This document shows, piece by piece, positions 4,115-25,751 of a DNA stretch of 27,049 nt. The translations under genes and the position numbers were made by a program. This stretch comes from Candidatus Woesearchaeota archaeon (GTDB lineage: Archaea; Nanobdellota; Nanobdellia; SCGC-AAA011-G17; GW2011-AR17), in NCBI GenBank assembly GCA_964485975.1, contig CAZAKS010000001.1:1-27049 (forward strand). The letters are read 5' to 3'. The notes beneath the pieces were generated by a model. That model was not told where the DNA came from and did no database searches. It worked only from the letters and a program-made list of their open reading frames with translations. How positions within the stretch are numbered: position 1 is the stretch's first letter; every line of letters starts with the position of its first letter.

Positions 4115-4786
4115 ATGGTGGATTATAAAAACCTTAAGATTGTTGGAACATCCCATATTGCAGTATCTAGTATTAAGGAAGTTAAAAAAGAAATCTTGGA
4201 GAACAAACCAGAATTTGTTGCCTTGGAGTTAGATAAAAATAGATTGATTGGTTTGATGAGCAATAAAAAGAGAAAGATAAAACTAAAAGATCTCAAAGGA
4301 TTGGGTATTTCTGGTTTTTTATTTGTGATGTTTGGTCAATGGTTAGAAGAGAAATTAGGAAAGATGGTAGGTACTAAACCTGGAGGGGAGATGAAGATTG
4401 CAGTTAAAGCTGCTGCAATGGTAGGATCAAAAATAGTATTGATTGATCAAGAGATTAATATTACAATTAAAAAATTGATGAAAACCATCACATTTAAAGA
4501 AAAATTTAGATTTGTTTGGGATATTTTAAAAGGTTTAATGGGAAAGGGAGATATTGAAAAATTTGATTTGAGAAAGGTTCCTTCTGATAAATTAATTGAG
4601 AAAATGATAAAAAGTGTTGAAAATAGGTATCCTAGTGTCTATAAAGTGTTAATTTCAGATAGGAATAAGATTATGGGGAAGAGATTACACAAGCTTATGA
4701 ATAAGTTTCCAGAGTCTCAGATTATAGCTGTTGTTGGTGCAGGTCATGAAGAAGGCATTATAGAAGAAATAAAAAAATATAAATAG
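4115..4786 (+). CDS. traB: TraB/PrgY/GumN (TIKI-like) family protein
   Basis: Motifs GTSHI, VALELD, KPGGEM, LIDQEINIT, DRNKIM and VVGAGH. Confidence 0.85.
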   Translation: MVDYKNLKIVGTSHIAVSSIKEVKKEILENKPEFVALELDKNRLIGLMSNKKRKIKLKDLKGLGISGFLFVMFGQWLEEKLGKMVGTKPGGEMKIAVKAAAMVGSKIVLIDQEINITIKKLMKTITFKEKFRFVWDILKGLMGKGDIEKFDLRKVPSDKLIEKMIKSVENRYPSVYKVLISDRNKIMGKRLHKLMNKFPESQIIAVVGAGHEEGIIEEIKKYK

Positions 4787-4807
4787 TTCTATAGTTCTAT
4801 TAGTTTT

Positions 4808-5605
4808 ATGTTTACTAAAAAAGAATGGATTCATTTTATTATAATCGTTCTAGTTGTAGGTTTTGCTTTAGGATTTAATGATGGTGCTGATGAGTTTGTT
4901 TTGGGTGCTTGGTTGTTAAATTTGCTGATAGTTACAATTATGGTTGCTATTTCATTATTCTTATATCAATGGGCACAGAAAACTGTTGCTAAGATGAATG
5001 GATTTATTACAGAGTTTAAAATTTGGGGTGTGGATACTTTTCATTGGGGGCTTTGGCGGGGTATTATGTTGAAAAAAGAAAAAGATTTGCCTAAAACCTT
5101 TAAATTCTTTGGTAGAGAGATTACAATTAAATCTGTTCCAATTGGAATCTTCCTTTCTATTATTGTTACATTAGTTACCAATGGTCACTTATTTTGGTTA
5201 GGTTTAACAAATTATGATTTACTGATTAAAAGATCTAAGAGGTTAGGTAGAAAGTTTGTTAATGTTACTGGTTATGATGAAGCAAAGATTGCTTTGGCTG
5301 GACCAATGACTTGTGTTGTTTTAATGATTGTATTTGGATTGTTAAATGCACAAGGTATGTTTACTAAGATGATTATGGTCAATACTTGGCTTGCTGTTTT
5401 TAATATGATTCCATTTTTCCAGTTTGATGGAGGAAAAGTTTGGAATGGTTCAAGAGTCTTATATGTTTTTAGTGCAGTATTTATAGCTGCAATTGCAATC
5501 TTAGTTCATTTCTTGGACTTTATGCCTTTGTTAATTGTTAGTGTTGTTTTAGCTTTGACTGCTGCTATTATCTTTTTTGTGAAGAGGTATGTAGAAGACA
5601 AATGA
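4808..5605 (+). CDS. Site-2 protease (M50)-like membrane protein with degenerate zinc site
   Basis: IALAGP and FNMIPFFQFDG motifs present; the expected HExxH reads YQWAQ. Confidence 0.65.
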   Translation: MFTKKEWIHFIIIVLVVGFALGFNDGADEFVLGAWLLNLLIVTIMVAISLFLYQWAQKTVAKMNGFITEFKIWGVDTFHWGLWRGIMLKKEKDLPKTFKFFGREITIKSVPIGIFLSIIVTLVTNGHLFWLGLTNYDLLIKRSKRLGRKFVNVTGYDEAKIALAGPMTCVVLMIVFGLLNAQGMFTKMIMVNTWLAVFNMIPFFQFDGGKVWNGSRVLYVFSAVFIAAIAILVHFLDFMPLLIVSVVLALTAAIIFFVKRYVEDK

Positions 5606-15559: not shown

Positions 15560-16072
15560 ATGGAAGAGGAAGAATATGAAGATAGTAAGCTAAAGAAGGT
15601 TTTAGTAACAGGAGGTGCTATTTTTCTTATTTTGCTTGTTCTTAGCTACATGTTAACAAGTTTTGGTGTTGGAACAATATTAGCAAGTATGATTGAAAGT
15701 GATAAAATTGAAGGTGATTCTATTGATACTGGTGAGTTTGTTGTTGTTTTTTTAAATAATACTTATGAGGAAGTTTTAGAAGTTTACAATGAAGATTTAA
15801 GTGTTGAAACTAAAATGTGTTTATTTGGTTATTATGATGGAGATTATTATGTTACTGAAGTGTTAAAACCTATTATTCACTCCCAATCTTTTAATCAAGT
15901 GGTTTCAGAGGGTTGTCCTGAAGAGGTTTTGATTAGTTTACATTCACATCCTTACAAACAATGCTTGGCTTCTGAGCAAGATTTAGATAACTTGATGGGT
16001 TCCAAAGAAGTAAATCCTAATGCTTTAATTGGAATAATTTGTGAAGAAGAGAGATTCTCTTTTTATAGTTAA
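15560..16072 (+). CDS. Membrane-anchored JAB/MPN+ (JAMM) domain protein
   Basis: One N-terminal TM helix; E(TKMC)...HSH-x7-S-x2-D (HSHPYKQCLASEQD). ATG 15560 preferred. Confidence 0.75.
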   Translation: MEEEEYEDSKLKKVLVTGGAIFLILLVLSYMLTSFGVGTILASMIESDKIEGDSIDTGEFVVVFLNNTYEEVLEVYNEDLSVETKMCLFGYYDGDYYVTEVLKPIIHSQSFNQVVSEGCPEEVLISLHSHPYKQCLASEQDLDNLMGSKEVNPNALIGIICEEERFSFYS

Positions 16073-20845: not shown

Positions 20846-20974
20846 GTATTTTAGTACAAATATAGTGAAAGAAGTAATTCTTTTATATTTGAGCATTACA
20901 GGGCTTAATTCTAAAGACTAGATATAATATACATTCAGGGAAGTTTTATATATTAGTTTGGAGTGTATAGTGTT

Positions 20975-21796
20975 ATGGATTATTTGAATAAATTAGAGGT
21001 GGAATTAAAAATTAGAGGGATGAGTAAGAATACTATTGAAACTTATGTCTTCCATGTTAGGAACTTTTTAGATTATGTAAATAAGCACCCTTCAAGAATT
21101 ATTGAAGATGATGTTAAGAGGTATCAGGCATATTTAATGTATGATAAAAAAATTAAATCTAGAACAATAAATATAATCTTGAGTTCATTGAAGTTCTTTT
21201 TTGGTGAGATTTTAGGTAATGATATTACAGCTAGAATCAAAAGACCCAAATTTGAGAAGAAAATACCAATTACCTTGTCTAAAAAGGAGATTAAAAACCT
21301 TTTAGAAACGATTAAAAACATTAAGCATAGAATTTTACTTGAGTTAATGGTTTCCAGTGGGTTAAGGGTTTCTGAAGCTGTTGCCTTGAAAGTAGAAGAT
21401 ATTGATTTTGATGAAAAGACAGTCCATATTAAGTCAGGGAAAGGAAATAAGGATAGAAAGACAATTATTTCTAGTTCTATTTTGAAGTTGATTAATGAGT
21501 ATCTAGATTCTAGGAAAAGAGATTCTGAGTATTTATTTGAGAAAAAGGAAGGACATATTGGGGTTAAACTCCCTCAATTAATAGTTAAAGAAGCTGCAAA
21601 GAAGGCGAAGATTAGGAAGAAAGTATCTTGTCATAATCTTAGGCATTCATTTGCTACTCATCTCCTTAATGAAGGAGTAGATATAAGGTTAATTCAGGTT
21701 CTTTTAGGACATTCAGATATATCAACAACCCAAATTTATACACAAGTGAGTACAGAACAGATAAAGAAAATTAAGAATCCTTTTGAAGAGATTTAA
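20975..21796 (+). CDS. Xer-type tyrosine recombinase (XerA-like)
   Basis: N-terminal SAM-like domain; intact catalytic set GLRVSE (R), KGNK (K), HNLRH, LLGH and TTQIY. GGAG upstream of ATG 20975. Confidence 0.9.
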   Translation: MDYLNKLEVELKIRGMSKNTIETYVFHVRNFLDYVNKHPSRIIEDDVKRYQAYLMYDKKIKSRTINIILSSLKFFFGEILGNDITARIKRPKFEKKIPITLSKKEIKNLLETIKNIKHRILLELMVSSGLRVSEAVALKVEDIDFDEKTVHIKSGKGNKDRKTIISSSILKLINEYLDSRKRDSEYLFEKKEGHIGVKLPQLIVKEAAKKAKIRKKVSCHNLRHSFATHLLNEGVDIRLIQVLLGHSDISTTQIYTQVSTEQIKKIKNPFEEI

Positions 21797-22413
21797 TCTA
21801 ATTCTTCTTGATTAACATCTTCTTTTTTATTAGAATTCTTAGATTTTTTTGCCTTTTTTGTTGGTTTTATTTGAAAATATTTCCTCTTATCTTGTTTCAA
21901 ACAAACATAAGCATACTTACCTATTCTTTTCTTTAAGATATATCCATCTAATTCTAACTTTATTACTAATTGAGAAATTTGTGATCTTGATTTTTCATAA
22001 TCCTTCTCGGGGTACAACTCTATTGCTAAGGCCTTTAGTGCTACCCAGTCTCCCTTTTCATTGTGTAAAGAACCAAGAATTCTACATGCTCTTCTTTCAG
22101 CTATAGACATATGGATGATTGGGCTTTCTTCTTGTGAAGTTTCTTTTTCTTCTACTCTTTCGATTTCTTCTACTCTTTCTGGCATTGGAGTAGCTGCTAA
22201 GATTTGTTCTAGTTTTTCAATTCTATCTAAAAGAGATTGGTGATTATTTGTATGTTCTTCATGTTTTTTATTGTGATCAGTATGTGTACTTTTGAAGTGG
22301 TTTATCCAACTAGAAATATGATTCATATCGTGTTTAATATTAGAAAATGAATTTTTAATTGCTTCAGGATCTACCTGATTATCACTTCTTTTTTTGAATA
22401 GCCACCAGACCAT
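21793..22413 (-). CDS. Coiled-coil + C-terminal winged-helix protein A
   Basis: N-terminal AIKNSFSNIKHDM; C-terminal MSIAERRACRIL...LKALAIEL...RSQISQLVIKLELDGYILKKRIGKYAYV has a wHTH-like pattern. Confidence 0.75.
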   Translation of the reverse strand: MVWWLFKKRSDNQVDPEAIKNSFSNIKHDMNHISSWINHFKSTHTDHNKKHEEHTNNHQSLLDRIEKLEQILAATPMPERVEEIERVEEKETSQEESPIIHMSIAERRACRILGSLHNEKGDWVALKALAIELYPEKDYEKSRSQISQLVIKLELDGYILKKRIGKYAYVCLKQDKRKYFQIKPTKKAKKSKNSNKKEDVNQEELD

Positions 22414-22472
22414 TCTTTATTGAGTGTTGTTTTTATTTATTAATGTTTTGGATTGTTTATTTTTTGTCAATG

Positions 22473-22532
22473 ATTGTCAAGTTACGTTAGTATAACGTCA
22501 ACTGAAACGTTAGACGACAAAAACTTGACAAT
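22473..22532. repeat. Perfect 11-bp inverted repeat enclosing three phased ACGT motifs
   Basis: ATTGTCAAGTT (22473-22483) and AACTTGACAAT (22522-22532); ACGT at 22484, 22495 and 22507. Confidence 0.8.
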
Positions 22533-22660
22533 AAATATACAATAATTATCGACGATAGAAGTAAAAATCAATAAAATAAAGAAATAATACTCTAAAATAA
22601 GCAAATTTAAGCTAAAAAAGGCAAAAGTGAGAGTTAGAATAGGTGTGCATAAGCAATGAA

Positions 22661-22693
22661 TAAGTGCACAAGATGTGTCCAGGATGTGTTTAA
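22661..22693. repeat. 33-bp repeat block, copy A (downstream of wHTH gene B)
   Basis: 31/33 identical to 23442-23474, including an identical 22-bp core GATGTGTCCAGGATGTGTTTAA. Confidence 0.9.
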
Positions 22694-22750
22694 ACAATAA
22701 AAAGAGACAAAATAAAGCTAAAATAAGCTTATTTTTACTAAAGTGAGAGT

Positions 22751-23386
22751 TTAGAAGCTATCATTTAGCTTTTTTTGAGTAGGATCTAGGTTATAGAAAG
22801 TATTTACAAGCTTCTTCTTAATATTAAGTGAGCGTATTTCAGGAGGAATAGATAAGATAATAACTTTATTATTATACTTAGATTTAAGCACGGGAAGACC
22901 TTTTTTAATCAATCCAGAAACATAAGTTCTTACACAACCAGAGGTTATTTTAAGGTTTTGTCCGACGTCGTCGTATGTTACCTTGGAAATCTCTTCTTCT
23001 AATTGATATATAGTCAGGAAGGTTAAGAATTCTTGCTTTGAAAGTCTTGAAAGAATGCTTGGAAGGTTCTCCTGGAGCTCTTGAATATTAAGTGAATAAC
23101 CATCTAGTGAATAACCAGGAAGTGAATAACCATCTAATGAAACCCCTTTATTTCCACTGGAGTCTTCATTTTTAAGTGATGAATCCAGTAAATTTTGGGG
23201 TTTTAGGTCTTCTAAAGCCCTAATTTGGCTATTTTGGTCTTTAAGTTGAGTCATAAGTGTGAGAAGTTGCTTATTTTGCTCTATTATGAAGTCTCTATTA
23301 GCTTTTACTTCCTGTTCCAATGTAGCAATATGGGCTTTTACCCTCGAGAAAGCATCTTTTATTGCATCTTCTTTAGAATCAACCAT
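22751..23386 (-). CDS. Coiled-coil + repeat linker + C-terminal winged-helix protein B
   Basis: N-terminal AIKDAFSRVKAHI; linker SLDGY-SLPGY-SLDGY; C-terminal LSKQEFLTFLTIYQLEE...TYDDVGQNLKITSGCVRTYVSGLIKKG has a wHTH-like pattern. Confidence 0.8.
   Translation of the reverse strand: MVDSKEDAIKDAFSRVKAHIATLEQEVKANRDFIIEQNKQLLTLMTQLKDQNSQIRALEDLKPQNLLDSSLKNEDSSGNKGVSLDGYSLPGYSLDGYSLNIQELQENLPSILSRLSKQEFLTFLTIYQLEEEISKVTYDDVGQNLKITSGCVRTYVSGLIKKGLPVLKSKYNNKVIILSIPPEIRSLNIKKKLVNTFYNLDPTQKKLNDSF
23091..23135. repeat. 3 x 15-bp tandem repeat inside gene B
   Basis: AGTGAATAACCATCT / AGTGAATAACCAGGA / AGTGAATAACCATCT. Confidence 0.9.
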
Positions 23387-23407
23387 TTAGTAACCCTCAA
23401 TAGGCTA

Positions 23408-23520
23408 ATGTGAGTGAATAATATAAAAAAGTTTATGTGTTTAAGTGCATAGGATGTGTCCAGGATGTGTTTAAGATGTGCATAATGAGTGAATAAGTGC
23501 CCAATGAATGTTTAATGAGT
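23408..23520. repeat. Iteron-like array upstream of gene B (includes repeat block copy B, 23442-23474)
   Basis: ATGTG at 23408, 23435, 23454, 23465 and 23476 (last three 11 bp apart); TGAGTGAATAA at 23411 and 23486; ATGAGT at 23485 and 23515. Confidence 0.85.
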
Positions 23521-23558
23521 CTTTTTATACAAAGAAAGTAAAAAGAAATAAAAAATAA

Positions 23559-24017
23559 TTAACCAATATACTCTTCTGCCTTTTTCTCTGAAGGTGTTTT
23601 CTCAGAGTCTGCAGGTTGGATCATTGGTAATCTAATGTGTGGTGGCAAACCTAGCTCTTGACCTAATAATAATGCCTTAATGTTACATCTTAAAAGAACA
23701 TTATTCATTATTAATTGGGTGGCTTTAGGTTCAAATTTTTTGGTTTTTTTCCATTCTCCAATCATTTTTATTAATTTGTCTTTTTCTTCTAAAAACATCA
23801 AATGGCCTTCTATCAATATTTCTGCTTGTTTTGGAGCATATCTTACAGAAAACTCATAATCCACCTTCATTACAGTTTGGGTTTGATCTCCACTTAATGG
23901 AATTTCTTCTTGTTTAATATCTACAATCTTCATCCCAGTATCTATATTTAAGGGGGCCTCTAATGGTTTTTTTCGTTCAACATGGAACTTATCAAAATTA
24001 AATCCTACTACTGGCAT
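23559..24017 (-). CDS. Hypothetical protein, possibly SecB-like fold
   Basis: MPVVGFNFDKFHVER...YEFSVRYAP...ILIEGHL...NNVLLRCNIKALLLGQELGLPPHIRLP. Four beta-strands followed by helices is reminiscent of SecB (inference). Confidence 0.6.
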   Translation of the reverse strand: MPVVGFNFDKFHVERKKPLEAPLNIDTGMKIVDIKQEEIPLSGDQTQTVMKVDYEFSVRYAPKQAEILIEGHLMFLEEKDKLIKMIGEWKKTKKFEPKATQLIMNNVLLRCNIKALLLGQELGLPPHIRLPMIQPADSEKTPSEKKAEEYIG

Positions 24018-24071
24018 TTATATCACCAATGTTCAAGAAATTTGGAGATTATATAAAGATTATGGTTCTTA

Positions 24072-25751
24072 TCACATCTCTTTTAGGGCTTTTAAACCTA
24101 GTAAATTTAATGTATTTGCTAGAACTTGCTTTGTGGACTTAACTAAGAGGGTCCTTGCCTTTGTAAGCTCTTTATCTTCAGTAATACATTTATGAGTATT
24201 ATAAAAATTATTAAATGCATGAGAAAGTTCTATTGCATATTTAGCTATGTGGAAAGGTTTGTATTCTTTTGCCCCTTTTTCTACTATTTCTGGGAAGATC
24301 CCTAATATATTAAGTAGATTTGTTTCCTCTGGTTGATCCAATAGGGCTAAATTTGCTTTTGTTGAAGCTTTTGTTTTCTTTAGTATTGAACATGCCCTTG
24401 CATGAGAATATAAAATATATGGACCTGTATCTCCCTCAAATGCCATTGCTTGTTTTTGGTCAAAAATTATTGGTTTATTGTTATCTTGGAAGATCATACT
24501 GAACTTCAAGGAGGTTATTGCTATTCCCTTTGCTGTTTCTTTTATTTTTTTAGCTGTCCATTCTGGATGTCTTAACTTTGTTTCATTTGTTGCATAATCT
24601 AATAACTCATCTCTTAGATCTGAATAGAGTATGTTGACTCCAGTTCTTGAAGACATCTTTCCAGAAGGCAATCTTACCTCATCAAATGAAAGGTGGAATG
24701 AATCTTTTGCTTGTTTAAATTTCATTAAGTGTAAAACCTTGAATAGTTGTTGGAAATGTAGTGCTTGTGCTTTTCCGACTATATATACTGAATTATCTAT
24801 TTTGAATTTATTGAATTTTTTTTCTGCAAGAGCTAAGTCCTTTGCTGAATATAGTATTGTTCCATCTCTTCTTAATAGTACCCAAACCCCCAATTTATCT
24901 AGTTCTACTATTGTAGCTCCGTCACTGATTTTTGCTATTTTATCTTTTAGAAGTTGGTTAACTATTTCTTTTCCCTTCTTTTCCATCTCCCTCTCAAAAA
25001 AGAAATGATCAAAATGTGCATCTAGCTCTTTGTAGATTCTATTGAATTCATCTAATGACCATTTTCTTGATTTTTTCCAAAGGGATTTTAATTCCTTGCT
25101 TTTATTGTGTTCTAAGTTATAGTTTATTTTTTCTACTTCTTCTTTTAGTTCTGGTTTATCTTTTAGTTTTTTTACTGAGTTGACATATATTTTTGCTAGC
25201 CATTGGCCTTCTTTTCCTTTTGGAGGTGTACCATTTGAGTATTTTTTATAATACCAAAGCCACTTTGCTACATGTGCCCCAGTATCTCCTTGGTAGTTTG
25301 CTTGGATTACTTGGTAACCATTGAACTTTAAGATTCTAGCTAATGACTCCCCTAAGGATGTTCCCCTTAAGTGACCTACATGAAATGCTTTGTGGGTGTT
25401 TGCTTGGCAGTATTCTACCATTACTTTCTTTTTCTTTTTTTTATGAGAACCATATTTGTTTTTTTCTTTTTGGATTTTTTCTATTATTGATTTATTCTTT
25501 AACTTTAAGTCAATAAAAAAGTTAAGGTATGGGCCAATATTGAGTATTTTCTCTATTGGGGAGAGTGGTTTGATTTTATTCTTTAGCTCTTTTGCTATTG
25601 ACTTTGGATCTTTTTTGTATGATTTTGAGAGAGTGAAGCAAGGTAATGCGTAATCCCCCATTTCTGGATTTGGTGGAACTTCTAGTAATTTGTCGTCGAA
25701 ACCCTTTATTTCTTTTTTTAGAAGTTTTATTATTTCTTTTTTGAAATCCAT
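24072..25751 (-). CDS. argS: Arginine--tRNA ligase
   Basis: GDYALPCF, GPYLNF, ANTHKAFHVGHLR (HIGH), KMSSR, FEGDTGPYILYSHAR and DALR-like anticodon domain. Confidence 0.96.
   Translation of the reverse strand: MDFKKEIIKLLKKEIKGFDDKLLEVPPNPEMGDYALPCFTLSKSYKKDPKSIAKELKNKIKPLSPIEKILNIGPYLNFFIDLKLKNKSIIEKIQKEKNKYGSHKKKKKKVMVEYCQANTHKAFHVGHLRGTSLGESLARILKFNGYQVIQANYQGDTGAHVAKWLWYYKKYSNGTPPKGKEGQWLAKIYVNSVKKLKDKPELKEEVEKINYNLEHNKSKELKSLWKKSRKWSLDEFNRIYKELDAHFDHFFFEREMEKKGKEIVNQLLKDKIAKISDGATIVELDKLGVWVLLRRDGTILYSAKDLALAEKKFNKFKIDNSVYIVGKAQALHFQQLFKVLHLMKFKQAKDSFHLSFDEVRLPSGKMSSRTGVNILYSDLRDELLDYATNETKLRHPEWTAKKIKETAKGIAITSLKFSMIFQDNNKPIIFDQKQAMAFEGDTGPYILYSHARACSILKKTKASTKANLALLDQPEETNLLNILGIFPEIVEKGAKEYKPFHIAKYAIELSHAFNNFYNTHKCITEDKELTKARTLLVKSTKQVLANTLNLLGLKALKEM

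What the first reader, a model, noticed from the sequence alone, without database searches (positions are those of the whole stretch)
23091..23496. Dual-coding repeats: the intergenic motif AGTGAATAA is written three times into the coding linker of its putative binder
Seen: AGTGAATAA occurs at 23091, 23106 and 23121 inside gene B, encoding SLDGY/SLPGY/SLDGY. It occurs again at 23413 and 23488 in the upstream intergenic array, and TGAATAA lies in the downstream array (22657). Five exact 9-mers within about 410 bp, in coding and non-coding DNA alike, suggest selection at the DNA level. Inference: the low-complexity linker exists to host binding sites, similar to iterons inside lambda O. From memory (unverified), homologous DPANN proteins carry species-specific repeat peptides right after a similar S-x-G-N-x-G-V motif, here SSGNKGV.
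Basis: partly seen in the sequence, partly recalled or inferred. Interest (0 to 1): 0.8.

Follow-up and report, generated by a model that had tools for sequence, protein, structure and literature searches.

The report
Origin box and binding repeats inside gene
The repeated 9-mer is real and belongs to a DNA signal module written into the flexible linker of a small archaeal DNA-binding protein: a replication-initiator (Orc1/Cdc6) box followed by short repeats of the kind that flank the gene, so here the DNA, not the peptide, is what evolution conserves.

Summary
AGTGAATAA sits at all five stated places. However, three copies are one 15-nt tandem repeat, and a shared 9-mer between a gene and its flanks is commonplace in this window. 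The window alone therefore proves little; about 65 homologous loci decide the matter.

1. The 'S-x-G-N-x-G-V motif' is the translation of a canonical archaeal origin recognition box (ORB; 23142-23162, minus strand). It is frozen at synonymous sites. Four lineages keep it in a different reading frame.
2. The repeats after the ORB are lineage-specific DNA units: TTCA, AAGC, AACA, TGCA, GACA, or here 3 x TTATTCACT. In four of the five classes they match the repeat arrays in the gene's own promoter. The peptide changes with them.
3. In this clade the repeat codons are synonymously identical (12-16 of 12-16, against 53-76% elsewhere in the gene).
4. The TTAnnCA(C) arrays flanking the gene are unique in the 0.9-Mb genome.
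5. One recognition-helix residue tracks the repeat class one to one.
6. In relatives the gene lies 6-15 kb from the orc1/cdc6 origin.

This scan has already reported the same module in other DPANN genomes. I found no paper describing it.

The parts
22751..23386 (-). Gene B, 211 aa. N-terminal long helix (residues 3-60), disordered linker (62-96), C-terminal MarR-like winged helix-turn-helix (101-200).
   Evidence: ORF. AlphaFold2 model with pLDDT below 50 for residues 62-96. Foldseek matches to MarR/MepR-type proteins. 94 homologues, all from DPANN/Nanoarchaeota-type sources.
23142..23162 (-). Origin recognition box (ORB) written in the coding linker. The sense strand reads CTCCAGTGGAAATAAAGGGGT and encodes (D)SSGNKGV.
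   Evidence: Only match in the 0.9-Mb genome. Homologue consensus is gTTCCAnnGGAAATnAAGGGGT. Codons TCC 21/21, GGA 21/24, AAT 20/20, GGG 21/21, whereas equally conserved wHTH residues use 3-6 codons. Same consensus as the ORBs upstream of orc1/cdc6 in relatives.
23091..23141 (-). They encode GYSLPGYSLDGYSL.
   Evidence: Tandem Repeats Finder: period 15, 3.4 copies. Synonymous identity to clade members is 12-16 of 12-16 codons, against 53-76% in the rest of the gene; Fisher p 1e-5 to 5e-4 for seven of eight clade members, 0.017 for the closest.
23414..23515 (-). Promoter array of direct TTAnnCA(C)/YTRnnCAC units spaced 8-11 nt apart. It includes TTATTCACT at 23413-23421 and 23488-23496.
   Evidence: Repeat families D1, D2 and D4. 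It is the only cluster of at least 5 units in 120 nt in the whole genome.
23421..23431 (-). TATA-like box (sense strand CTTTTTTATAT). The TTATTCACT unit follows immediately, 35 to 27 nt before the ATG.
   Evidence: Read from the sequence. Homologue loci show the same layout: TATA, then a unit, then the ATG. Promoter function is inferred.
22645..22693 (-). 3' array of five units of the same family. It shares a 33-nt block (94% identical) and a 31-nt block (84% identical) with the promoter array.
   Evidence: D2, D4. With the promoter array, it is one of only two clusters of at least 4 units in 70 nt in the genome.
22739..22750 (-). ACTCTCACTTT directly after the stop codon, with a second copy at 22623-22635. 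This locus-specific motif is conserved after the stop codon in most homologue loci. Its role is unknown.

Best explanation
The three coding AGTGAATAA copies are the antisense reading of three TTATTCACT units. Together with an adjacent Orc1/Cdc6-type origin recognition box, they form a DNA module written into the disordered linker of a coiled-coil/winged-helix protein. The peptide there is a passenger.

The units belong to one TTAnnCA(C) repeat family. That family also builds two arrays, unique in the genome, across the gene's promoter and just 3' of the gene.

Most likely mechanism (inferred, not shown):
- Protein B reads these units with its recognition helix.
- It represses its own promoter through the unit lying between the TATA box and the start codon.
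- Through its coiled coil it bridges the promoter, intragenic and 3' arrays.
- The single Orc1/Cdc6 of the cell binds the intragenic ORB right beside the first intragenic unit.

The locus would then be a non-origin initiator-binding and regulatory site a few kb from oriC, not an origin itself.

My odds by step:
- DNA-level constraint: about 0.95.
- The box is ORB-type: about 0.85.
- Linker and flank repeats are one family under common constraint: about 0.85.
- B is the binder: about 0.55.
- The physiological role is open.
For: ORB:
- Its synonymous sites are frozen across 24 loci, while the wHTH codons vary freely.
- It is present in about 56 of 65 loci and degenerate in the others examined.
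- Four lineages read it in the +1 frame (PQEMKGS instead of STGNEGV) and still keep the DNA.
- The ORBs upstream of orc1/cdc6 in five relatives have the same consensus and flank an AT-rich tract.
- The Pyrococcus mini-ORB TTCCAGTGGAACT, and Cdc6 binding to an ORB cluster inside the dp1 gene, give a precedent (PMC1904270).

Repeats:
- There are five repeat classes after the ORB. Each has the same unit in its own promoter array, except the GACA locus.
- 18% of linker 7-mers recur in the locus's own upstream 150 nt. The figure is 9% in other loci's upstream regions and 2.2% for the rest of the coding sequence.
- Identical blocks of 22-26 nt are shared between promoter array and linker in L015 and L085.
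- Repeat codons are frozen in the window's clade.
- The arrays are unique in the genome.

Binder:
- The residue after the invariant Arg153 in the predicted recognition helix is T in all TTCA loci, A in AAGC, G in AACA, S in TGCA and D in GACA.
- The repeat classes map to clades, with at least 5 changes on the tree.

Place:
- Gene B and orc1/cdc6 lie on one contig, 6-15 kb apart and divergently oriented, in four relatives.
Against: - There are no binding or expression data of any kind.
- The helix/repeat covariation is confounded by phylogeny: each class is nearly one clade.
- Concordance is imperfect. Several TTCA-class loci have 0-1 ATTCA units in the proximal 150 nt. The GACA locus (L086) has all its repeats inside the gene and none in its flanks.
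- The window's own oriC is not assembled: orc1/cdc6 is cut by a contig end. The ORB identity therefore rests on relatives and on the literature.
- Within the window alone, the 9-mer sharing is not beyond chance.
- The tetranucleotide nature of most repeats, and the long identical promoter/linker blocks, also fit slippage or gene conversion.
Confidence: 0.6

Rival explanations
1. The locus is a second replication origin built like lambda ori. The initiator-binding sites (the ORB plus iteron-like units) lie inside the gene of an origin-specific accessory initiator (B), and replication starts here.
For: An ORB sits next to iteron-like direct repeats, in arrays unique in the genome. [quoted passage not shown] Many archaea have several origins, each with its own initiator gene (PMC4010727).
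Against: There is a single ORB with no inverted partner, and I noted no AT-rich unwinding tract beside it. A textbook origin, with 3-4 ORBs in inverted orientation around an AT-rich tract, lies next to orc1/cdc6 only 6-15 kb away in relatives. The module also lies in a transcribed coding region.
Confidence: 0.15
2. Only the ORB is functional. The repeats are neutral microsatellites, kept similar to the nearby promoter array by slippage and gene conversion and tolerated because the linker is disordered.
For: Most classes are tetranucleotide repeats. Identical blocks of 22-26 nt shared between promoter array and linker look like recent conversion. The linker is predicted to be disordered.
Against: - Repeats persist directly after the ORB in every lineage sampled. 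In most, the first unit starts 1 nt after GGGGT.
- In the window's clade, the non-microsatellite 15-nt units are synonymously frozen across 56-91% protein identity.
- The recognition-helix residue tracks the class.
- Copy number always keeps the reading frame.
Confidence: 0.12
3. The signal acts at the RNA level. The shared motif in the 5' leader and in the linker part of the mRNA is read by an RNA-binding factor or a small RNA.
For: One unit lies between the TATA box and the ATG, and the linker units are transcribed in the same sense.
Against: Most array units lie upstream of the TATA box, and a further array lies 3' of the gene, flanked by the two ACTCTCACTTT copies. The most conserved element is a known DNA site type. 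No Rfam family matches: the best hit has E 0.084, far below its threshold.
Confidence: 0.05
4. Selection acts on the peptide: a functional GYSL-type short linear repeat. On this view the likeness to intergenic DNA is codon bias plus chance.
For: The peptide GVSLDGYSLPGYSL is conserved down to about 55% identity. Shared 9-mers are common in this AT-rich window.
Against: Synonymous sites are frozen. The ORB is kept in another reading frame with a different peptide. The peptide changes completely between repeat classes, while the match between DNA unit and promoter is kept.
Confidence: 0.03
5. The repeats are a slipped-strand phase-variation switch for gene B.
For: Tetranucleotide tracts, such as (TTCA)4-5 and (AAGC)6-8 in relatives, are in principle prone to frameshifts.
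Against: All sampled copies are in frame. The window's clade has a fixed three (some relatives four) 15-nt units. Near-identical loci carry identical tracts.
Confidence: 0.03

Closest known systems
Intragenic ORB/mini-ORB cluster in the dp1 (PolD small subunit) gene of Pyrococcus/Thermococcales (Matsunaga et al. 2007, PMC1904270)
   Same: Orc1/Cdc6-type boxes lie inside a protein-coding gene a few kb from the cdc6-adjacent origin and are conserved across an order. In Pyrococcus they are bound by Cdc6 in vivo and in vitro.
   Different: The host gene differs: here a small wHTH protein, not dp1. Here there is a single ORB, frozen in a disordered linker and coupled to lineage-specific short repeats that match the gene's promoter arrays. 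No binding data exist here.
ori lambda inside the O gene of lambdoid phages (iterons bound by O; PMC7466680)
   Same: Repeated binding sites are written into the middle of the gene for a DNA-binding protein. The number of repeats changes the length of the protein. The encoded peptide is not thought to contact DNA.
   Different: B has no homology to O; it is a MarR-like wHTH with a coiled coil. I noted no AT-rich unwinding tract. The most conserved site is for a different protein (Orc1/Cdc6). This is a cellular chromosome, and a canonical origin lies nearby. Origin activity is unlikely.
Canonical archaeal oriC1-type origin (inverted ORBs around an AT-rich DUE next to orc1/cdc6)
   Same: The box consensus is the same: TTCCAnnGGAAAT, then 1-3 nt, then a G-string.
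   Different: There is one box only, with no inverted partner and no DUE, and it is not adjacent to orc1/cdc6.
Autoregulated repeat-array binders such as ParR-parC of plasmid R1 or plasmid Rep-iteron systems (from general knowledge)
   Same: Phased direct repeats of 8-11 bp cover the promoter of the gene for the presumed binder. The locus is unique in the replicon.
   Different: The fold family differs. Additional sites lie inside the coding sequence. The module is coupled to an initiator box. No partner ATPase gene is seen.

Membership tests
Archaeal origin recognition box (Orc1/Cdc6 site) | 13-nt core with the TTCC and GAA motifs (TTCCAnnGGAAAT) | tested here: met
   The window reads CTCCAGTGGAAAT, a 12/13 match to the 13-nt consensus TTCCAGTGGAAAT of the homologue loci; it shares 11 of 13 positions with the Pyrococcus mini-ORB TTCCAGTGGAACT. 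The homologue consensus is TTCCAnnGGAAAT.
Archaeal origin recognition box (Orc1/Cdc6 site) | G-rich string a few nt 3' of the core | tested here: met
   GGGGT lies 3 nt after the core. GGG is invariant (21/21) and the Val codon is GTT or GTC. In the two degenerate loci, L009 and L050, the string is 3 G long.
Archaeal origin recognition box (Orc1/Cdc6 site) | Same consensus as the boxes at the lineage's own orc1/cdc6-adjacent origin | tested here: met
   Relatives G001-G005 carry TTCCATAGGAAATAGGGGTG-type boxes upstream of cdc6. The origin of the window's own genome is not assembled.
Archaeal origin recognition box (Orc1/Cdc6 site) | Bound by Orc1/Cdc6 | not testable with these tools
   This needs EMSA, footprinting or ChIP.
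Replication origin (oriC) | Two or more ORBs in inverted orientation around an AT-rich unwinding element | tested here: not met
   There is a single ORB in the genome assembly, with no inverted partner within the locus.
Replication origin (oriC) | Adjacent to the initiator gene orc1/cdc6 | tested here: not met
   In relatives, orc1/cdc6 lies 6-15 kb away and has its own ORB/DUE region.
Lambda-O-like arrangement (binding sites for a protein inside its own gene) | Repeated sites within the coding sequence between two domains | tested here: met
   The repeats lie in the disordered linker between the coiled coil and the wHTH.
Lambda-O-like arrangement (binding sites for a protein inside its own gene) | The encoded protein binds those sites | tested here: inconclusive
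   There is only correlative support. Recognition-helix residue 154 tracks repeat class one to one, but the classes are nearly clades.
Lambda-O-like arrangement (binding sites for a protein inside its own gene) | Homology to lambda O or to plasmid Rep initiators | tested here: not met
   Pfam gives only sub-threshold wHTH hits. The fold matches are MarR/ArsR-type regulators.
MarR/ArsR-type winged helix-turn-helix regulators | wHTH fold with a recognition helix and a beta wing | tested here: met
   The model has H138-145, H149-161, E167-171 and E175-179. Best Foldseek match is MepR, E 6.8e-4, TM 0.51 by target.
MarR/ArsR-type winged helix-turn-helix regulators | Sequence membership: a Pfam family over its gathering score | tested here: not met
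   The best wHTH-type hit is Fe_dep_repress at 13.7 bits against a cut-off of 26; the top-scoring hit, IcmW (15.9 bits against 27), is also below its cut-off.

The most novel reading that the evidence does not exclude
A lineage-specific winged-helix protein and the replication initiator Orc1/Cdc6 bind side by side inside that protein's own coding sequence. This would form a conserved control locus near oriC, functionally like E. coli datA or lambda ori-in-O. It would couple initiator availability or cell-cycle state to expression of B, or the reverse. The protein's DNA specificity would co-evolve with repeats written both in its promoter and in its own linker.
Probability: 0.3. Interest if true: 0.85.

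Novelty: new variant of a known kind. Interest (0 to 1): 0.7.

Why it matters
Replication control in DPANN archaea is essentially unstudied, and I found no paper on ORBs in these lineages.

Here a textbook initiator site is conserved base for base inside a gene across an entire group of tiny archaea. It sits next to repeats that co-vary with the promoter arrays and with one recognition-helix residue of the encoded protein. This has three consequences:
- It explains an apparent 'protein motif' (STGNEGV plus YSFIHSF-type repeats) as translated DNA signals.
- It provides a clean natural case of dual coding.
- It points to a factor working with Orc1/Cdc6 that can be tested with two recombinant proteins and short oligonucleotides.

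It is also a warning for annotation: conserved low-complexity peptide motifs in these genomes can be cis-elements.

Tried and rejected
- Complex prediction of Orc1/Cdc6 (from relative G002) with protein B gave no verdict. It is not evidence either way.
- Sequencing-run search: no RNA holder is listed for this stretch, so expression, transcript ends and internal starts could not be examined.
- Rfam scan of 21700-24100: only a sub-threshold frameshift-element hit (E 0.084, 19 bits against a gathering score of 70), rejected.
- Pfam on genes A and B and on the 152-aa neighbour: nothing over threshold.
- PDB sequence search: only weak wHTH and coiled-coil hits.
- Paralogy of genes A and B: BLASTP finds only the short N-terminal AIKxxFSxxK likeness (E 0.095), so I did not treat them as demonstrated paralogues.
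- ORB text search in PMC3089459 returned nothing usable.
- DNA for P0088 and P0090 could not be fetched because the sample files were too large.
- A frameshift or phase-variation reading, and a purely peptide-level reading, were considered and rejected (see rivals).
- The 11-nt core alone with 2 mismatches is not enriched in the window (7 found, 9.8 expected). Only the full box is specific.

Full report
**1. The observation**

AGTGAATAA is at 23091, 23106, 23121, 23413 and 23488 on the + strand. One unrelated copy lies on the - strand at 15873. That is 6 matches against 0.68 expected, and no shuffle reaches 6.

Gene B is 22751-23386 on the minus strand (211 aa). The three coding copies read TTATTCACT in the sense strand and encode the SLDGY/SLPGY/SLDGY stretch.

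Two cautions apply:
- The three coding copies are one tandem repeat of period 15.
- In this AT-rich window a shared 9-mer between a gene and its flanks is ordinary. Other genes share 0-15; gene B shares 2.

The window alone therefore does not show selection on DNA.

**2. Anatomy of the locus**

Both intergenic spaces around gene B hold direct repeats of a degenerate 8-mer. In the sense strand the unit reads TTAnnCA(C)/YTRnnCAC: TTATTCAC, TTATGCAC, TTAAACAC, CTGGACAC. The units are spaced 8-11 nt apart.

The two arrays share a 33-nt block (94% identical) and a 31-nt block (84% identical).

Arrays of this kind occur nowhere else in the 0.9-Mb genome. The only clusters are 23445-23515 and 22645-22693.

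One TTATTCACT unit lies directly after a TATA-like box, 35-27 nt before the ATG. By general knowledge this is the position from which archaeal repressors block polymerase recruitment; that function here is an inference.

The AlphaFold2 model of protein B has three parts:
- a long N-terminal helix (residues 3-60);
- a disordered segment (62-96) that contains the whole region in question;
- a C-terminal winged helix-turn-helix.

The closest folds to the C-terminal domain are MarR/MepR-type regulators. No Pfam family passes its threshold.

**3. The 'S-x-G-N-x-G-V motif' is an origin recognition box**

A codon alignment of 24 homologous loci shows frozen synonymous sites exactly here: TCC 21/21, GGA 21/24, AAT 20/20, GGG 21/21, GTY. 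Equally conserved residues of the wHTH use 3-6 codons (for example Gly150: GGT 7, GGA 7, GGC 6, GGG 4).

The nucleotide consensus is gTTCCAnnGGAAATnAAGGGGT. In the window it reads CTCCAGTGGAAATAAAGGGGT, at 23142-23162 on the minus strand, and it is unique in the genome.

This is the archaeal ORB pattern:
- The Pyrococcus mini-ORB is TTCCAGTGGAACT, with core motifs TTCC and GAA (PMC1904270).
- The orc1/cdc6-upstream regions of five relatives carry boxes such as TTCCATAGGAAATAGGGGTG, in inverted arrangement around an AT-rich tract.

Of about 65 loci from genomes and metagenomes, about 56 match a strict pattern. Two that fail it were examined (L009, L050), and both carry degenerate versions.

Decisively, four lineages (L012, L014, L064, L066) read the same DNA in the +1 frame, giving V-PQEMKGS instead of S-STGNEGV. 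So the DNA is what is conserved, not the peptide.

In four relatives, gene B and orc1/cdc6 lie on one contig, 6-15 kb apart and divergently oriented. In the window's own genome, orc1/cdc6 is cut by a contig end.

**4.

Lineage-specific DNA repeats follow the ORB. In most lineages they start 1 nt after GGGGT. The classes are:

| Repeat class | Peptide encoded | Loci |
|---|---|---|
| (TTCA)n | YSFIHSF | most lineages |
| 3 x GGTTATTCACTnnnn | (S)LDGYSLPGYSLDGYS | the window's clade |
| (AAGC)n | LSKQASKQ | e.g. L015, L018, L026 |
| (AACA)n | not recorded | L071 |
| TGCA-type | CASMHASM | L085 |
| (GACA)n | not recorded | L086 |

In four of the five classes the promoter arrays use the same unit:
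- AAGC loci have 5-9 AAGCA and no ATTCA in the upstream 150 nt.
- TTCA loci show the reverse pattern.
- L071 has TTAAACA units.
- L085 shares a 24-26-nt block between promoter array and linker; L015 shares a 22-nt block.

On average, 18% of linker 7-mers recur in the locus's own upstream 150 nt. The figure is 9% in other loci's upstream regions and 2.2% for the rest of the same coding sequence.

On a tree of the protein without its linker, the classes form clades and need at least five changes.

Within the window's clade (56-91% protein identity), the repeat codons are synonymously identical in 12-16 of 12-16 cases. Elsewhere in the gene the figure is 53-76%. Fisher p is 1e-5 to 5e-4 for seven of the eight clade members and 0.017 for the closest.

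Exceptions:
- L086 has all its repeats inside the gene.
- Some TTCA loci have few units in the proximal 150 nt.

**5. Who binds the repeats**

In the predicted recognition helix (residues 149-161), the residue after the invariant Arg153 depends on the repeat class:

| Repeat class | Residue 154 | Loci or proteins |
|---|---|---|
| TTCA (incl. the window's clade) | T | all such loci, about 33 |
| AAGC | A | six loci |
| AACA | G | L071, P0088 |
| TGCA | S | L085 |
| GACA | D | L086 |

This one-to-one relation is what direct read-out of the variable dinucleotide of TTA-NN-CA would predict, and it makes B the best candidate binder. It is nevertheless correlative and partly confounded by phylogeny.

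The genome has a single Orc1/Cdc6. That it binds the intragenic ORB is inferred from the sequence class, and from the Thermococcales precedent of Cdc6 binding an ORB cluster inside dp1 (PMC1904270).

**6. Mechanism proposed**

Shown:
- There is a DNA-level constraint on a bipartite module (an ORB plus repeat units) inside a disordered linker.
- The units belong to the same family as two flanking arrays that are unique in the genome.
- The locus lies near oriC in relatives.

Inferred:
- B binds the units.
- B represses its own promoter via the unit just downstream of the TATA box.
- B bridges the arrays through its coiled coil.
- Orc1/Cdc6 sits on the ORB next to the first intragenic unit. The locus then acts as a non-origin initiator-binding and control site.

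A true second origin is less likely. There is a single ORB with no inverted partner, I noted no unwinding tract beside it, and a canonical origin lies nearby.

Neutral concerted evolution of the repeats, RNA-level readings, peptide-level selection and phase variation are weighed under the rival explanations.

**7. Comparison with known systems and novelty**

Three systems come closest:
- The dp1 intragenic ORB cluster of Thermococcales: the same kind of site, inside a gene near oriC.
- ori lambda in the O gene: binding repeats in the middle of the binder's own gene, with extra repeats adding residues (PMC7466680).
- Autoregulated repeat-array binders.

None of these combines an initiator box with co-evolving repeats in a protein's own linker and promoter.

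I found no paper describing this. The search covers only the held library.

This scan has reported the same module several times in other DPANN genomes (e1-4670067, e1-907488, e1-964255, e1-1494129, e1-4808118, e1-1398031). I reached the ORB reading before consulting those notes, and I re-tested it here.

What this window adds:
- the 15-nt TTATTCACT variant of the repeat arm, with direct evidence of frozen synonymous sites;
- a five-class covariation table that includes the recognition helix.

**8. Verdict**

I class it as a new variant of known kinds and rate its interest at 0.7.

Noticed in passing
window 21793-22413 (-), 22140-22180, 22473-22532: Neighbouring gene A has the same build as gene B (N-terminal AIKxxFSxxK helix, wHTH-like C-terminus). 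Its own linker carries an 18-nt tandem repeat encoding ERVEEIERVEEKE, and a nested palindrome sits upstream. It has no ORB and no TTAnnCAC units. Homologue loci show analogous CG-rich palindromes downstream of gene B.
   Followed up: partly
window 22739-22750 and 22623-22635 (-): ACTCTCACTTT follows the gene B stop codon and recurs about 115 nt further on. The motif is rare elsewhere in the genome, yet it is conserved right after the stop codon, and often repeated, in most homologue loci of every repeat class. It could be a terminator or another protein's site.
   Followed up: partly
G000 contig C66 (L045) 4271-5235; window end 27049: The genome's only orc1/cdc6 is cut by a contig end, and the window's contig ends 3.7 kb beyond gene B. 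In relatives the two genes lie 6-15 kb apart. The canonical origin therefore probably lies in this assembly gap.
   Followed up: partly
L086:1695-1850: A distant homologue (30% identity) carries two ORBs in its coding linker, read in different frames (VPQEIEGL and STGNEGV), plus seven TTCGACA units and (GACA)n tracts. All lie inside the gene, with none in its flanks.
   Followed up: partly
window 23559-24017 (-): A 152-aa ORF with no Pfam match lies between gene B and argS. The ORF upstream of gene B in many Nanoarchaeota loci ends in a similar LPPHIRLP...YIG tail, which suggests conserved synteny.
   Followed up: no
window 20963-21796 (+): A XerA-type tyrosine recombinase gene (Phage_integrase, 1.2e-45) converges on gene A and overlaps its end by 4 nt. 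I did not look for a dif-like site.
   Followed up: no
L004 upstream of gene B (about 60-170 nt before the ATG): In a clade member, one unit variant (CTCTGGACACA) is amplified to five perfect tandem copies in the promoter array. This shows rapid turnover of array composition.
   Followed up: no
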